A stretch of 64,000 bases of DNA, from assembly GCF_016026235.1 (NCBI RefSeq), contig NZ_CP065613.1. One strand, given 5' to 3'. Position 1 is the first letter of the stretch; each line of letters starts with the position of its first letter. The notes under the pieces were generated by a model, which searched no databases, was not told the DNA's origin, and saw nothing but the letters and a program-made list of their open reading frames with translations. The stretch is from Escherichia coli. Lineage in GTDB: Bacteria > Pseudomonadota > Gammaproteobacteria > Enterobacterales > Enterobacteriaceae. Shown piece after piece: positions 27,577 to 32,869 of this stretch. Both the position numbers and the translations under genes were made by a program.

Positions 27577-27866
27577 TGGTGGATTTACGTAAAGCGGCGC
27601 GGGGGCAGATGTGCACCGTCAGAATTCCTGGCTACTGCAATCACGATCCGGAAACGTCTGTGCTGGCGCATTACCGACTGGCGGGAACGTGCGGAACAGC
27701 GACAAAACCACACGATATGCAGGCGGCGATTGCCTGTAGCTCATGCCACGATTTAATCGACGGGCGGGTAAAAACAAGCGATTACACCAAAGAAGAATTA
27801 CGCCTGATACATGCAGAAGGTGTTTTTCGCACGCAAGAAATCTGGAGAAAGGAAGGTTATTTATGA
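27576..27866 (+). CDS. Hypothetical nin-region protein (96 aa), resembles DUF1364/YbcO
   Basis: Cys/His-rich (CTVRIPGYCNHD…CSSCHD). Confidence 0.45.
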   Translation: MVDLRKAARGQMCTVRIPGYCNHDPETSVLAHYRLAGTCGTATKPHDMQAAIACSSCHDLIDGRVKTSDYTKEELRLIHAEGVFRTQEIWRKEGYL

Positions 27867-28417
27867 TTTACCCAACAAATACAGGCAAAAGCGGGGAACA
27901 CCTTCGTCTCACCACGCTGGAAAGTGTCTGGATTCAGGGAAAACTGCGCATGTGGGGGCGCTGGTCGTATATTGGCGGCGGTAAGACGGGGAATATGTTC
28001 AACCAGTTGTTGGCCTCTAAAAAGCTGACAAAAACGGCAATTAACGAGGCGCTCCGGAGGATGAAAAAAGCAGGTCTGGACAAACCTGAACTTGAGGCTT
28101 TTTTGCGGGATATGATCAACGGCAAGCAAAAAAGCTGGCTGGTGCATTGTACTGACGCAGAGGCGTTATGCATTGATCGGGTGATTAGTGAAGTGCTGGC
28201 AGAACACCCAGGATTGATTTGTATCCTCCGGCAACGATATGAAGGGAGTGGGATGACTAAGCGAAAAATGGCTGAATTGCTGAATGATTCACACCCTGAG
28301 TGGTGTTATCGGACGTGTTGCAGTCGGGTTGATGTATGGCTAAATCTTGCTGAATATATGCTCTATCTACCGATGCGTGATGCATTCTCTTCCGGGGATC
28401 TAAAAACCGTCTGTTGA
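27863..28417 (+). CDS. Putative late-gene antiterminator (Q-like)
   Basis: 184 aa from ATG at 27863 with SD AGGAAGG; position upstream of pR'-like promoter, tRNAs and lysis genes; Cys-rich C-terminus. Confidence 0.45.
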   Translation: MIYPTNTGKSGEHLRLTTLESVWIQGKLRMWGRWSYIGGGKTGNMFNQLLASKKLTKTAINEALRRMKKAGLDKPELEAFLRDMINGKQKSWLVHCTDAEALCIDRVISEVLAEHPGLICILRQRYEGSGMTKRKMAELLNDSHPEWCYRTCCSRVDVWLNLAEYMLYLPMRDAFSSGDLKTVC

Positions 28418-29455: not shown

Positions 29456-29532
29456 GGCCCTTTAGCTCAGTTGGTCAGAGCGAGCGACTCATAATCGCCA
29501 GGTCGCTGGTTCAAGTCCAGCAAGGGCCACCA
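29456..29532 (+). tRNA. tRNA with anticodon CAU (Ile2/Met-like, ileZ-type)
   Basis: Cloverleaf by eye: acceptor GGCCCTT/AAGGGCC, anticodon loop CTCATAA, T-arm GCTGGTTCAAGTCCAGC, 3' CCA encoded. Confidence 0.8.
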
Positions 29533-29533
29533 A

Positions 29534-29610
29534 CCACCACTAGCTCATCCGGATAGAGCATCAACCTTCTAAGTTGACGGTGCGAGGTTCGAGTCCTCGG
29601 TGGTGGGCCA
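29534..29610 (+). tRNA. tRNA-Arg (anticodon UCU) with atypical 5' C-start acceptor stem
   Basis: Acceptor CCACCAC/GTGGTGG, anticodon loop CTTCTAA, T-arm CGAGGTTCGAGTCCTCG, CCA encoded. Confidence 0.65.
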
Positions 29611-29612
29611 GC

Positions 29613-29688
<76 letters not shown>

Positions 29689-29691
29689 TAT

Positions 29692-29766
<75 letters not shown>

Positions 29767-30058: not shown

Positions 30059-30274
30059 ATGAAATCCATGGACAAAATTTCAACGGGCATTGCCTACGGC
30101 ACCTCCGCCGGCAGTGCCGGCTACTGGTTTTTGCAGTGGTTGGATCAGGTCAGTCCATCACAGTGGGCTGCGATTGGTGTGCTGGGAAGTCTGCTTCTGG
30201 GGCTTCTGACTTATCTGACGAATCTGTATTTCAAAATAAGAGAAGACAAGCGTAAGGCTGCACGGGGAGAGTAA
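30059..30274 (+). CDS. Class II holin / pinholin (phage 21 S-like)
   Basis: 71 aa; [28 protein letters not shown]… two TM helices and charged C-terminus; SD GGAGGTGAGG. Confidence 0.85.
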
Positions 30275-30277
30275 ATA

Positions 30278-30907
30278 ATGAAGCATGAAGAAATGAATCA
30301 GCGATTCAATCACCTGGAAAATGAAATCACTGAGCTTAATAAAAAATTGTCGGCGTTGGTGAGTTCTGAAGATGAAAACAAACGCCGCGATGAGCATTAT
30401 GCGGCGATTTACGATTACTGCCACAAAGTCGCTCACGAGACTTTTATGAAGTTTTTGCAGGAAAAGTTTTTACCGGCCGCATTGTCAGAAAAAGAGGCGG
30501 CTTACCTGCGGCCTGAGTACGTCATTACGGTTAACAGTGCCGGAGAGGAAGAGCATAAAAGTGATTTTATTGCGTCTGCACCGGATAAAGACCAGGAACC
30601 CCGTCGGCCTTTCAGGGTTTCCTGTGAAGAGGGTGAGTTCGTCGTTTATGAGAACGGAAAACCTGTCCGGGCATCGCATCATCACTGCCTGAAAATTATT
30701 AATCTCGCTATCAGATGCCTGAAAGACGAAAACACCAGAGTTATGAAACGCATTGGCCGTTGCATGGGGTATTTGCAGGTGGCGGCAGAGATTGAAGCAC
30801 TTGCCAGTGGTGCAGACATGGATGCTGCGGTGCGGGAGGCTCTTCTTCGTGATTTCAATACTCCCCCTTTAAGAAAGAGCCTGATGACTGGATCCAGCCG
30901 GGGCTGA
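30278..30907 (+). CDS. Unknown 209-aa protein inserted between holin and endolysin
   Basis: ATG 3 nt after the holin stop, SD GGGGAGAG; N-terminal coiled-coil-like segment, several Cys/His; no family recognised. Confidence 0.5.
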   Translation: MKHEEMNQRFNHLENEITELNKKLSALVSSEDENKRRDEHYAAIYDYCHKVAHETFMKFLQEKFLPAALSEKEAAYLRPEYVITVNSAGEEEHKSDFIASAPDKDQEPRRPFRVSCEEGEFVVYENGKPVRASHHHCLKIINLAIRCLKDENTRVMKRIGRCMGYLQVAAEIEALASGADMDAAVREALLRDFNTPPLRKSLMTGSSRG

Positions 30908-30972
30908 CTTATCTTAAAAGGCGTATATAAGTTGGCTCGTTATTTGTTGCCGATAAATCCTGATAAATATCC

Positions 30973-31506
30973 ATGAGCGCAAAAATCAAATACGGCCTGT
31001 CGGCTGCTGTTCTGGCGCTGATTGCCGCAGGCGCGTCTGCTCCCCAGATACTTGACCAGTTTCTGAACGAAAAAGAGGGTAATCACACAACGGCATACCG
31101 TGATGGTTCTGGCATATGGACCATCTGTCGTGGTGCCACAATGGTGGATGGTAAGCCTGTCATACCGGGAATGAAGCTGTCGAAGGAAAAATGTGACCAG
31201 GTTAACGCTATTGAACGTGATAAGGCGCTGGCATGGGTGGAGCGCAATATTAAAGTACCTCTGACCGAACCACAAAAAGCGGGTATAGCGTCATTTTGCC
31301 CCTATAACATTGGCCCCGGTAAGTGTTTCCCGTCGACGTTTTATAAGCGGCTGAATGCCGGTGATCGTAAGGGCGCATGCGAGGCGATTCGCTGGTGGAT
31401 AAAAGATGTTGGGCGCGATTGCCGCATACGTTCAAATAACTGCTATGGACAGGTTATTCGTCGTGACCAGGAAAGCGCATTAGCCTGTTGGGGGATAGAT
31501 CAATGA
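30973..31506 (+). CDS. SAR endolysin (T4-lysozyme-like muramidase)
   Basis: 177 aa; N-terminal hydrophobic signal-anchor-release segment ([16 protein letters not shown]) followed by E…D…T catalytic triad region. Confidence 0.8.
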
Positions 31507-31970
31507 GCAGAGTCACCGCGATTATCTCCGCTCTGGTTATCTGCATCATCGTCTGCCTGTCATGGGCTGTTAATCATTACCGTGATAACGCCATTACCTA
31601 CAAAGAGCAGCGCGACAAAAACGCAAGAGAACTGAAGCTGGCGAACGCAACCATTACTGACATGCAGCAGCGCCAGCGTTCTGTTGATGCACTCGATGCT
31701 AAATACACGAAGGAGTTAGCTGATGCGAAAGCTGAAAATGATGCTCTTCGGCGCAAGCTTGATAATGGTGGTCGGGTGCTCGTCAAAGGAAAATGCCCTG
31801 TGCCAGCCTCAGCCAAAACCTCCAGCGCCTCCGGCATGGGCAATGATGCCACCGTCGAACTCTCTTCAGTTGCTGGACGAAACGTTCTCGGTATCCGGGA
31901 CGGAATTATCCGCGACCAAACAGCACTGAGAACGCTTCAGGAATACATCAATACGCAATGCCTGAATTAA
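31503..31970 (+). CDS. Rz i-spanin
   Basis: ATGA overlap with the endolysin stop; N-terminal TM helix and coiled-coil periplasmic domain. Confidence 0.7.
31723..31929 (+). CDS. Rz1 o-spanin lipoprotein, embedded in Rz in the +1 frame
   Basis: Signal peptide with lipobox (MVVGCSS) and proline-rich mature part. Confidence 0.65.
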
Positions 31971-32011
31971 TCCCTCTGTATCAAAAACGAACTCAATTTG
32001 TTGGATAGTGA

Positions 32012-32323
32012 ATGAAAATTTATATTGCCGGGCCAATGACGGGATATGAGAACTTTAATCGTGACGCCTTTAATAAAGAGGCAGATCGTTTGTCACGACA
32101 TGGTCACTCTGTCTTGAATCCAGCCACTTTGCCTAATGGTCTGACACAACGTGAATACATGGATATTTGCTTTGCAATGCTTCGTTGTGCGGATGCTATT
32201 TTGATGCTTCCTGGCTGGAAAGCGTCTGCTGGAGCAACTGCTGAGTATCATTACGCATACAAGATGGAGATGCCGGTATTCACTACGCTGAATTACCCGC
32301 CAGCTTGTTCCTCTGCAGTATAA
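32012..32323 (+). CDS. Small protein with a nucleoside 2-deoxyribosyltransferase-like N-terminus (DUF4406-like)
   Basis: 103 aa beginning MKIYIAGPMTGYENFN…VLNPATLP…; sits between the lysis and packaging modules. Confidence 0.45.
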   Translation: MKIYIAGPMTGYENFNRDAFNKEADRLSRHGHSVLNPATLPNGLTQREYMDICFAMLRCADAILMLPGWKASAGATAEYHYAYKMEMPVFTTLNYPPACSSAV

Positions 32324-32869
32324 AAATCTCTTTGTTTCTCGTGTGCGATCGTGGTCGCTCGCTAAATTCCGCGCTGCATCGTCGCCGTATTTCCGCATTA
32401 ACTATGACCGTAGCCCGACGGGGAACTCCTTCTGCGCGAGTGTGCGGGAATAATCAAAAACGATGCACACCGGGTTTTTACCGCGTTTATGGTTCGCGGG
32501 TTTGTCCCTCATGCTCGCCAGTCCTGTGCGGGGGTGGAAGAAACAGGACACTTACACTGATTCTTGTGGGTACGATGCTATTCCTTTCTGGATTATCCCG
32601 ATGTCATTCATGCAGGGCGCTGTATCAGACGTTCGTCATGGCTGTCAGGCTGACGGGTCCTCCCGGTGGGGTGGCCTGCCACGGGGCGGGAGCGGCGCGG
32701 AAAAAGGCTAGTTTTTGAAATTTCATTCGTCATCACCACTACTGTAATGTATTGATATTACAGTGGTTTTATTTTTGTGCTGTCGGTTTTGATTGTTTTT
32801 TGTTCATCACTAACACCGTTTGCCTAAAGTTGTTCGCAAGATGCATGTTTAAAACATTCTGGAGCGGGT

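What the first reader, a model, noticed from the sequence alone, without database searches (positions are those of the whole stretch)
30278..30907. Unknown 209-aa gene wedged between pinholin and SAR endolysin
Lysis cassettes of this type are usually compact. Here a well-initiated 209-aa ORF starts 3 nt after the holin stop and ends 65 bp before the endolysin. It has a coiled-coil-like N-terminus and Cys/His-rich C-terminal half, with no family I recognise. It may be a lysis-timing regulator or a cargo gene co-expressed with late genes; this is my top candidate for something undescribed.
Basis: inference. Interest (0 to 1): 0.65.

Follow-up and report, generated by a model that had tools for sequence, protein, structure and literature searches.

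The report
Decayed accessory gene in lysis cassette
The extra gene between the holin and the endolysin is real. It is a tail-damaged copy of a recurrent, uncharacterised accessory gene family of E. coli and Salmonella prophages, with no evidence that it regulates lysis.

Summary
The ORF at 30278..30907 exists exactly as described: a Shine-Dalgarno sequence inside the holin's last codons, a start 3 nt after the holin stop, and 65 nt before the endolysin. It is a real gene with many homologues and dN/dS of about 0.36.

It is not unclassified. It matches PHROG family phrog_1085 (unknown function) at E = 4e-74. It corresponds to the coiled-coil plus C-terminal domain of the long "YdfR family" proteins, but lacks their N-terminal DUF1327 domain.

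It occupies the slot that K-12 Qin fills with ydfR (essQ-ydfR-rrrQ). Most sequenced relatives leave that slot empty. In Salmonella the homologues lie upstream of the holin.

In 52 of 54 loci found with the partner as query, a convergent ~105-aa gene ("Y", phrog_1853) lies next to an X-type gene. The window keeps only the empty Y site.

A 1-nt deletion at 30863-30867 puts the family's most constrained tail (…PPFKKEPDDWIQPGLTYLKRRI) out of frame. Thirteen independent records carry the same allele.

The protein is soluble. It has no Pfam, NCBIfam, PADLOC or PDB relative, and fold searches found only family members.

The best reading is a mobile, late-expressed accessory module that is partly decayed here, not a lysis-timing regulator. 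Its function remains unknown.

The parts
27863..28417 (+). Q-type late antiterminator (context: defines the late operon that carries the finding)
   Evidence: phrog_753, anti-termination protein Q-like, E = 5e-79
29456..29766 (+). Cluster of four tRNA genes (CAU, UCU, UGU, UCC anticodons) upstream of the lysis cassette
   Evidence: ARAGORN. The same cluster is annotated in CFSAN029787 and in phage PhiR47_1.
30059..30274 (+). Class II (S21-type) holin, 71 aa, with a dual-start MKSM N-terminus
   Evidence: phrog_9876 and phrog_20, holin. A 93%-identical copy carries PF04971. RefSeq names it 'class II holin family protein'.
30264..30271 (+). Shine-Dalgarno-like GGGGAGAG inside the last holin codons. 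It serves whichever gene follows the holin.
   Evidence: Sequence. The junction alignment shows the same GGGGAGAGTAA plus 3-4 nt plus ATG in front of R (VT2-Sakai), ydfR (K-12 Qin, PhiR47_1), long X (L004) and this ORF.
30278..30907 (+). The finding, gene X: a 209-aa soluble protein of family phrog_1085. This is the short isoform without DUF1327, and its C-terminus is frameshifted.
30278..30469 (+). X residues 1-64: helical hairpin / coiled-coil module
   Evidence: AF2 helices at 3-27 and 31-64, with pLDDT 86-89 over the first 20 residues. The same module also occurs fused after DUF1327 without the C-terminal domain (phrog_2091; P0136). dN/dS 0.59.
30470..30604 (+). X residues 65-109: variable, acidic, disordered linker
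   Evidence: pLDDT below 50 for residues 76-109. Rich in indels among homologues. dN/dS 0.86. pI 4.5.
30605..30865 (+). X residues 110-196: conserved C-terminal domain core, a three-stranded beta-meander plus three helices, with the motif GRCMGYLQVAAEIE
   Evidence: AF2 model of the domain alone: pLDDT 78, pTM 0.71. Invariant H136, I145, G160, R161, L166, Q167 and A169. dN/dS 0.32.
30863..30867 (+). C5 run carrying a 1-nt deletion relative to the family (CCACCC became CC-CCC). This is the frameshift site.
   Evidence: DNA alignment with intact relatives. Three-frame translation. The run is identical in 13 records.
30868..30930 (+). Ancestral tail, now out of frame: FKKEPDDWIQPGLTYLKRRI plus stop. 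It holds the family's invariant K, W, PG and YL residues.
   Evidence: The -1-frame translation equals the tail of P0004. These are invariant columns in the domain alignment. It has the lowest dN/dS of the gene, 0.25.
30931..30972 (.). Spacer that is the empty site of the convergent partner gene Y. The junction repeat CCGATAAATC is at 30950-30959.
   Evidence: The window is colinear with both flanks of the ~410-nt Y cassette of L026, which is bounded by GCCGGATAATC and ACCGATAAATC.
30973..31506 (+). SAR-type phage lysozyme, 177 aa. It has no Shine-Dalgarno sequence of its own in this arrangement.
   Evidence: phrog_7, endolysin, E = 1e-62. A 98%-identical copy carries PF00959. The N-terminal Ala/Gly-rich hydrophobic stretch and the SD-less upstream sequence are read directly from the sequence.
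31503..31970 (+). Rz i-spanin. The embedded Rz1 lipoprotein ORF is at 31723..31929.
   Evidence: phrog_13, Rz-like spanin, E = 7e-75. The embedded ORF has a lipobox VVGC.

Best explanation
X is a copy of a mobile accessory gene family, not a core lysis gene. The family is phrog_1085, the coiled-coil plus C-terminal domain module of the long 'YdfR-family' proteins. It rides in the Q-dependent late transcript of lambdoid prophages of Escherichia, Shigella and Salmonella.

In E. coli the family has colonised one fixed recombination slot, immediately after the S21-type holin. That is the slot K-12 Qin fills with ydfR.

Shown:
- Whatever sits in the slot starts 3-4 nt after the holin stop and uses the Shine-Dalgarno sequence embedded in the holin's last codons. 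X is therefore probably made late and translationally coupled to the holin.
- X is soluble and has three parts: an N-terminal helical hairpin, a disordered acidic linker, and a small alpha/beta C-terminal domain with a highly conserved tail.
- The full module elsewhere is X paired with a convergent ~105-aa gene Y, and often carries an N-terminal DUF1327 domain.
- This window has lost DUF1327 and Y. A 1-nt deletion has replaced the invariant tail.

Inferred:
- The C-terminal domain and its tail form a protein-binding module that acts on a cytoplasmic target late in infection.
- In the long isoforms it is tethered to DUF1327. K-12 YdfR, which consists of that domain, binds the catalytic half of RNase E and co-purifies with RNA. 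The family's most likely field of action is therefore host or phage RNA turnover, or another cytoplasmic host process, rather than membrane hole formation.
- The copy in this window is most likely hypo-functional or non-functional, a decaying passenger.
For: Family membership:
- phrog_1085 at E = 3.9e-74, matching profile positions 117-288 of 296.
- The long homologues (259-333 aa) carry PF07041/DUF1327 in front of the same module. P0004 is 82% identical.

Slot:
- In 80 of 80 IMG/VR loci the gene, with or without DUF1327, starts right after the class II holin and lies upstream of the lysozyme.
- K-12 Qin is essQ-ydfR-rrrQ, and PhiR47_1 is S-ydfR-R with the same tRNA cluster.
- The holin 3' junction is shared.
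- 31 of 41 sampled phage rows with both S and R are compact.

Mobility and accessory nature:
- Salmonella homologues lie between Q and the holin, next to toxin-antitoxin genes and ADP-ribosyltransferase toxin-like genes.
- Only 1065 of 5426 E. coli genomes carry any piece of the gene and 78 carry at least 80% of it, whereas 5298 carry parts of the S/R cassette.
- Frameshifted and fragmentary copies are common.
- dN/dS is 0.36, against 0.11 for the holin and 0.07 for the lysozyme.

Partner gene:
- Y is convergent to an X-type gene in 52 of 54 loci found with Y as query, and also in Salmonella and unassigned loci.
- The window retains the empty Y site.

Decay:
- The 1-nt deletion removes the invariant tail, which is the most constrained part of the gene.

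Cytoplasmic location: the maximum 19-residue hydropathy is 0.76, against 1.75 for the holin.

Late operon: no terminator-like or promoter-like site lies between X and R, and Q lies upstream.

RNase E link: K-12 YdfR binds the RNase E N-terminal half and co-purifies with RNA (PMC13232886).
Against: - No experiment addresses X, its C-terminal domain or Y.
- The RNase E link rests on a domain that this copy does not have, and on one two-hybrid and pull-down study of a different isoform.
- The tight 3-nt coupling to the holin in every E. coli locus would also fit a lysis-related role.
- The frameshifted allele is identical in 13 records with differing flanks, so a tail-less protein is at least tolerated and may keep some activity.
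- 185-aa forms without Y keep an intact tail, so Y is not obligatory.
- The dN/dS values are pooled pairwise counts on recombining sequences and are only rough.
Confidence: 0.55

Rival explanations
1. X is a cytoplasmic lysis-timing regulator. In this reading it acts like an antiholin cofactor or a modulator of SAR-endolysin release, is made in fixed ratio to the pinholin, and acts on the pinholin's cytoplasmic tail or on the endolysin's N-terminus.
For: - It always lies directly after the holin in E. coli, with translational coupling.
- Inserting it displaces the endolysin from the holin-embedded Shine-Dalgarno sequence and leaves R with an SD-less leader. The insert must therefore change R expression at least indirectly.
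- Accessory cytoplasm-facing regulators of SAR endolysins have a precedent in the Mu gp25 releasin (PMC9239132).
Against: - It has no transmembrane segment or membrane tether.
- It has no match to any lysis-annotated PHROG family or to any Pfam family.
- Most S21-type cassettes work without it.
- Salmonella homologues are upstream of the holin and separated from it by a convergent gene.
- Selection is relaxed and pseudogenes are frequent.
- The holin already encodes its own dual-start antiholin.
Confidence: 0.15
2. X, together with Y where Y is present, is a defence, anti-defence or superinfection-exclusion cargo. In this reading it is a two-gene moron that benefits the lysogen or counters a host immune system and has nothing to do with lysis.
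For: - The convergent X/Y pair is conserved across Escherichia and Salmonella. Y's orientation against the late transcript suggests it has a promoter of its own.
- The neighbouring positions hold toxin-antitoxin pairs (HicAB, ParE/ParDE), ADP-ribosyltransferase toxin-like genes and a Tad2-like gene.
- The distribution is patchy and mosaic, as is typical of such cargo.
Against: - Neither X nor Y has a PADLOC hit.
- Neither has a recognisable enzymatic or sensor domain.
- No promoter-like site was found for Y in two loci by a crude scan.
- X is oriented and coupled as a late gene, so it would not be expressed in the lysogen.
Confidence: 0.15
3. The ORF in this window is simply a pseudogene. The frameshift and the loss of DUF1327 and Y have left a non-functional remnant that is still translated only because it inherited the holin-coupled start.
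For: - The invariant tail has been lost to a 1-nt deletion.
- PGAP marks a relative as 'frameshifted'.
- Many fragments of the gene lie unannotated in E. coli genomes.
- No stimulatory RNA structure that could rescue the frame lies downstream of the slip site (z = -0.30).
Against: - The other 197 codons are intact and identical across 13 records.
- The coil and the domain core could retain partial function.
- Short isoforms without DUF1327 and without Y are established variants with their own conserved N-terminus, not recent truncations.
Confidence: 0.4

Closest known systems
Long 'YdfR family' / DUF1327-containing prophage proteins (phrog_1085; e.g. P0004 of 333 aa, P0091 of 296 aa)
   Same: - Same coiled-coil module and C-terminal domain (82% identity to P0004).
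- Same slot between the class II holin and the lysozyme.
- Same holin-coupled start.
   Different: - The window protein lacks the N-terminal DUF1327 domain altogether.
- It has its own short-form N-terminus.
- It has lost the conserved C-terminal tail to a frameshift.
E. coli K-12 YdfR (b1555, Qin prophage, 103 aa, DUF1327 only)
   Same: It occupies the identical position, essQ-ydfR-rrrQ. Its domain is fused to the X module in the long isoforms.
   Different: There is no sequence homology to the window ORF. Pfam PF07041 is not detected in it. YdfR's reported binding to the RNase E N-terminal half and to RNA (PMC13232886) cannot be transferred to X.
Phage Mu gp25 releasin (DUF2730)
   Same: It is an accessory, cytoplasm-facing protein encoded with a SAR endolysin that controls the endolysin's release (PMC9239132).
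   Different: The releasin is membrane-tethered by an N-terminal transmembrane domain and belongs to DUF2730. X has no transmembrane segment and no Pfam match. Mu lacks a holin, whereas this cassette has one.
Lambdoid late-region morons (for example stx in the Q-S region, bor after Rz)
   Same: - X is a variable, dispensable cargo placed at fixed junctions of the late operon.
- Its presence or absence is mosaic among otherwise near-identical cassettes.
- The Salmonella copies sit in the Q-S region.
   Different: Classical morons usually bring their own promoter and terminator. X has neither and is translationally coupled to the holin. Statements about stx and bor rest on general knowledge and were not tested here.

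Membership tests
phrog_1085 (C-terminal module of long YdfR-family proteins) | Significant profile match over the coil plus C-terminal domain | tested here: met
   E = 3.9e-74, residues 1-209 against profile positions 117-288 of 296. Distant Salmonella members hit the same profile.
phrog_1085 (C-terminal module of long YdfR-family proteins) | Conserved C-terminal tail PPFKxxPxxWxxPGxxYLKxR[IL] | tested here: not met
   In frame the protein ends PPLRKSLMTGSSRG. The tail is encoded in the -1 frame at 30868-30930 because of a 1-nt deletion.
phrog_1085 (C-terminal module of long YdfR-family proteins) | Position in the late operon next to a class II holin and a phage lysozyme | tested here: met
   Window. 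80 of 80 IMG/VR loci. In Salmonella loci it is adjacent but upstream of the holin.
YdfR / DUF1327 (PF07041) | Pfam PF07041 domain | tested here: not met
   No PF07041 hit for the window protein. The holin stop lies 3 nt upstream, so no DUF1327 coding sequence can be present.
Antiholins / lysis regulators (S21-71, T4 RI/RIII, P1 LydB and similar) | Homology to a lysis-annotated phage family | tested here: not met
   All five PHROG hits with E <= 0.01 are 'unknown function'. Nothing in Pfam or NCBIfam.
Antiholins / lysis regulators | A measurable effect on lysis timing | not testable with these tools
   This needs lysis curves of isogenic lysogens.
Releasin (Mu gp25, DUF2730) | N-terminal transmembrane tether and DUF2730 membership | tested here: not met
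   Maximum 19-residue Kyte-Doolittle hydropathy is 0.76. No DUF2730 hit in Pfam. The family definition is taken from PMC9239132.
Known anti-phage defence systems (PADLOC-DB 2.0) | Match to any defence-system protein model | tested here: not met
   Zero families at E <= 1 for X, for the long and distant homologues, and for Y.
   Only H136 is invariant. C116, C137 and C147 vary, and C162 is replaced by A or S in some members.

The most novel reading that the evidence does not exclude
X and Y, the convergent gene pair (phrog_1085 C-terminal domain plus phrog_1853), form a previously unrecognised two-protein module of enterobacterial lambdoid phages. The X domain has no detectable relative among solved structures. 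The module would either tune pinholin/SAR-endolysin lysis from the cytoplasm or redirect a host machine such as RNase E late in infection. The window's tail-less, Y-less allele would then be a natural partial knock-out of it.
Probability: 0.2. Interest if true: 0.6.

Novelty: new variant of a known kind. Interest (0 to 1): 0.3.

Why it matters
If the family does something, it is a widespread unknown. Pieces of it occur in about a fifth of complete E. coli genomes, including Stx-converting phages, and it sits inside the best-studied lysis cassette type.

The modules combine freely: DUF1327, coil, C-terminal domain and the convergent partner Y. That makes it an easy system for genetics.

The reported binding of K-12 YdfR to RNase E gives one concrete hypothesis to test.

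For this window the practical message is more modest. The gene is a catalogued, probably decaying passenger. Its main certain effect is architectural: it takes over the holin-coupled ribosome-binding site and leaves the endolysin with a leader that has no Shine-Dalgarno sequence.

Tried and rejected
1. Sequence family searches for X found nothing beyond phrog_1085 and its fragment families. I searched Pfam with the single sequence and with every alignment member, NCBIfam, PADLOC and PDB sequences with a profile.

2. Exhaustive HMMER against 1.84 billion representatives gave only 37 hits. All were family members or coiled-coil/HEAT noise.

3. Structure gave no lead.
- The full-length AF2 model was mediocre (pLDDT 65).
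- Foldseek against AFDB50 returned only uncharacterised family members from E. coli, Shigella and Salmonella.
- I therefore make no fold assignment.

4. Metal-binding idea: rejected, because the Cys/His residues are not conserved.

5. Programmed -1 frameshifting to rescue the tail. The deletion creates a C_CCT_TTA heptamer, and slippage there would give PPLKKEPDDW…. No stable downstream structure exists (z = -0.30) and no well-placed upstream Shine-Dalgarno sequence. I treat this as a curiosity, not a claim.

6. A functional link to the DUF4406/NDT-like gene. That gene is adjacent to X homologues in L007, L091 and L092, but it is absent from most E. coli X loci. I did not pursue it.

7. Promoter scans for Y found nothing convincing.

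8. Literature searches for YdfR, DUF1327, the RefSeq accession and the PHROG ids found no functional study of X or Y. The only relevant paper is the RNase E interaction screen for K-12 YdfR.

Full report
**Observation**

The window carries a lambdoid prophage. Its late region reads as follows:
- Q antiterminator, 27863..28417
- anti-repressor
- four tRNA genes, 29456..29766
- class II (S21-type) holin, 30059..30274
- the ORF in question, 30278..30907
- SAR-type lysozyme, 30973..31506
- Rz/Rz1, 31503..31970
- a small nucleoside-deoxyribosyltransferase-like gene
- terminase

The holin stop is at 30272-30274 and the ATG at 30278. A GGGGAGAG Shine-Dalgarno sequence sits at 30264-30271, inside the last holin codons. 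The ORF stop is at 30905-30907, and 65 nt follow before the lysozyme ATG.

No terminator-like or promoter-like site separates the ORF from the lysozyme. The ORF is therefore part of the late transcript.

**It is a real gene, and it is already catalogued**

- The protein is identical to RefSeq WP_001300760.1, 'hypothetical protein', in E. coli CFSAN029787.
- It matches PHROG family phrog_1085 (unknown function) at E = 3.9e-74. The match covers only profile positions 117-288 of 296.
- A search of 5.8 billion proteins gave 132 homologues. Every source name given was Escherichia or Shigella.
- The longer homologues (259-333 aa) carry Pfam PF07041/DUF1327, the 'YdfR family' domain, in front of the same sequence. 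P0004, at 333 aa, is 82% identical over 94% of the query.
- An exhaustive HMMER scan of 1.84 billion cluster representatives found only 37 hits.
- A profile of the C-terminal domain extended the family to Salmonella and no further.
- Pfam, NCBIfam, PADLOC and PDB sequence searches found nothing else.

**Anatomy**

The family is modular. Its parts are an optional N-terminal DUF1327 domain, a coiled-coil or helical hairpin, a variable acidic linker, and a conserved C-terminal domain of about 113 aa.

In the window protein:
- Residues 1-64 form two long helices.
- Residues 76-109 are predicted to be disordered.
- Residues 110-196 form a three-stranded beta-meander followed by three helices.
- The C-terminal domain modelled alone gives pLDDT 78 and pTM 0.71.
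- The protein is soluble. Its highest 19-residue hydropathy is 0.76, against 1.75 for the holin, and its pI is 6.2.

Fold searches were uninformative.
- Foldseek against AFDB50 returned only uncharacterised family members.

The 'Cys/His-rich' look is peculiar to this allele. Only H136 is invariant. The HHHC and RC motifs are HQHS and DY in relatives, and C162 is replaced by A or S in some members.

**The copy in the window is damaged**

Every intact homologue, including the Salmonella ones, ends …(D/N)xPPFKxxPxxWxxPGxxYLKxR(I/L). The K, W, PG and YL of that tail are invariant columns.

The window protein ends …NTPPLRKSLMTGSSRG instead. The -1 frame reads FKKEPDDWIQPGLTYLKRRI followed by a stop at 30928-30930, which is identical to the tail of P0004.

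A DNA alignment shows the cause: a single-base deletion, CCACCC to CC-CCC, in the C run at 30863-30867.

The same allele, with 0 or 1 nucleotide difference, is present in CFSAN029787 and in 12 IMG/VR contigs. It is therefore a real, recently spread allele and not a sequencing error.

Pairwise dN/dS on the IMG/VR copies:

| Gene or region | dN/dS |
|---|---|
| Holin | 0.11 |
| Lysozyme | 0.07 |
| X overall | 0.36 |
| X coil | 0.59 |
| X linker | 0.86 |
| X C-terminal domain core | 0.32 |
| X tail | 0.25 |

The deletion has therefore removed the most constrained part of the protein.

The deletion happens to create a C_CCT_TTA heptamer, and -1 slippage on it would restore the tail. The downstream RNA is no more structured than shuffled controls (z = -0.30), so I do not propose recoding.

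**The slot**

In all 80 IMG/VR loci retrieved with the family profile, the gene, with or without DUF1327, begins directly after a class II holin. It lies upstream of the lysozyme wherever the contig reaches that far.

The holin's 3' end, GGGGAGAGTAA, is followed after 3-4 nt by the ATG of whichever gene comes next:
- R in VT2-Sakai
- ydfR in K-12 Qin and in phage PhiR47_1
- the long X form in L004
- the short X form in the window

K-12 Qin is essQ-ydfR-rrrQ-rzpQ. PhiR47_1 has the same tRNA cluster and a DUF1327-only gene in the slot.

I queried the phage collection with the holin and lysozyme sequences joined together. In the spread sample, 41 rows matched both genes. Of these, 31 were compact and 10 carried an insert of about 375-430 nt.

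The insert is nonetheless a known polymorphism of this junction. Across complete E. coli genomes, 5298 of 5426 carry parts of the S/R cassette. Only 1065 carry any piece of X, and 78 carry at least 80% of it. Many copies are fragments or annotated as frameshifted.

One certain consequence of the insert can be read from the sequence. X takes over the holin-embedded Shine-Dalgarno sequence, and the lysozyme is left with the leader …CCGATAAATCCTGATAAATATCC-ATG, which has none.

**Outside E. coli the gene is not in the lysis cassette**

In Salmonella contigs the homologue lies between Q and the holin. It sits among toxin-antitoxin genes (HicAB, ParE-like) and genes with faint pertussis-toxin-like hits. 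In three loci it lies directly after a DUF4406/NDT-like gene. This weakens any argument built on its position between S and R.

**A conserved partner gene**

In those Salmonella and unassigned loci, X is followed at once by a convergent gene of about 105 aa, which I call Y. Y belongs to phrog_1853 (unknown function) and has no Pfam, NCBIfam or PADLOC match.

- The same Y lies between X and the lysozyme in 20 of the 80 E. coli loci.
- Searching IMG/VR with a Y profile gave 54 loci. In 52 of them Y is convergent to an X-type gene about 20-25 nt away. In the other two, Y sits alone between the holin and the lysozyme.
- Y has the same Escherichia/Salmonella distribution as X.
- The window's spacer is colinear with both flanks of the ~410-nt Y cassette of L026. 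That cassette is bounded by the near-repeats GCCGGATAATC and ACCGATAAATC. The window therefore holds the empty Y site, at 30931-30972.

**Interpretation**

The evidence fits a mobile accessory module of the late region: [DUF1327]-coil-C-terminal domain, paired with convergent Y. This module has settled in the ydfR slot of E. coli S21-type cassettes. In this window it is reduced to coil plus C-terminal domain, without Y and without the conserved tail.

The protein's action is not known. The only experimental lead concerns the sister domain. K-12 YdfR (DUF1327 only) binds the catalytic N-terminal half of RNase E in two-hybrid and co-purification assays, and it co-purifies with RNA (PMC13232886). 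In the long isoforms the C-terminal domain is tethered to that domain, so I rank action on cytoplasmic RNA turnover, or on another cytoplasmic host target, above action on the membrane lysis machinery. This step is inference.

The lysis-regulator reading is not excluded. Translational coupling to the holin would fit it, and Mu's releasin is a precedent for accessory control of SAR endolysins (PMC9239132). Against it:
- X has no membrane tether.
- X has no homology to lysis regulators.
- Selection on X is weak.
- X sits elsewhere in Salmonella.

A defence or anti-defence role is suggested only by the neighbourhood and by the two-gene architecture.

**Verdict**

'Cargo' is favoured over 'lysis regulator'. 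'Undescribed' holds for function but not for sequence.
- The copy is probably hypo-functional or non-functional.
- Novelty is modest. This is a variant of a catalogued but uncharacterised family.
- The conserved convergent X/Y pairing and the empty Y site are the most useful new points for anyone who wants to study the family.

Noticed in passing
L026:4661-4966 (- strand), L091:5521-5838 (-), L007:2378-2713 (-), L008:585-902 (-); empty site at window 30931-30972: A conserved convergent ~105-aa gene 'Y' (phrog_1853, unknown function) sits about 20-25 nt from the 3' end of X-type genes. This is so in 52 of 54 loci found with Y as query, and also in Salmonella contigs. The window retains only the empty site, with the junction repeat CCGATAAATC.
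   Followed up: yes
window 32012-32323 (+): A 103-aa nucleoside 2-deoxyribosyltransferase-like (phrog_355 / DUF4406-type) gene lies between Rz and the small terminase. DUF4406 genes lie directly upstream of X homologues in L007, L091 and L092. This may be a recurrent association of two late-region cargo genes.
   Followed up: partly
window 30861-30867: The 1-nt deletion creates a canonical X_XXY_YYZ heptamer (C_CCT_TTA). A -1 slip there would restore the conserved tail with a single F-to-L change. No downstream RNA structure supports recoding (z = -0.30).
   Followed up: partly
window 30931-30975; compare L151:463-533: With X in the slot, the SAR lysozyme loses the holin-embedded Shine-Dalgarno sequence it uses in compact cassettes. 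Its leader then has no obvious ribosome-binding site, so endolysin translation may differ between insert-bearing and compact cassettes.
   Followed up: no
window 31971-32750; L001:8112-9596; L004:7092-7613: The interval between Rz and the small terminase is a second variable cargo site. It holds the NDT-like gene in the window, ParD/ParE plus a KilA-N protein in CFSAN029787, and a Tad2-like (PF11195) gene in L004-L006.
   Followed up: no
window 29456-29766: Four tRNA genes (CAU, UCU-Arg, UGU-Thr, UCC-Gly) lie just upstream of the holin. ARAGORN calls the first one Met, whereas RefSeq annotates the identical position in CFSAN029787 as tRNA-Ile.
   Followed up: no
L003:3829-4348; L021, L022, L043: Some E. 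coli cassettes carry a different filling after X. It consists of a DUF1327 fragment plus a convergent 95-aa gene 'Z' (phrog_10490, unknown function). The X-to-R junction therefore accepts more than one convergent small gene.
   Followed up: partly
L093:3157-4469, L094:3325-4469: In Salmonella, the genes just upstream of the X homologue include a product with faint pertussis-toxin S1 / Scabin-like hits. This may be an ArtAB-type ADP-ribosyltransferase toxin, in the position that stx occupies in Stx phages.
   Followed up: no
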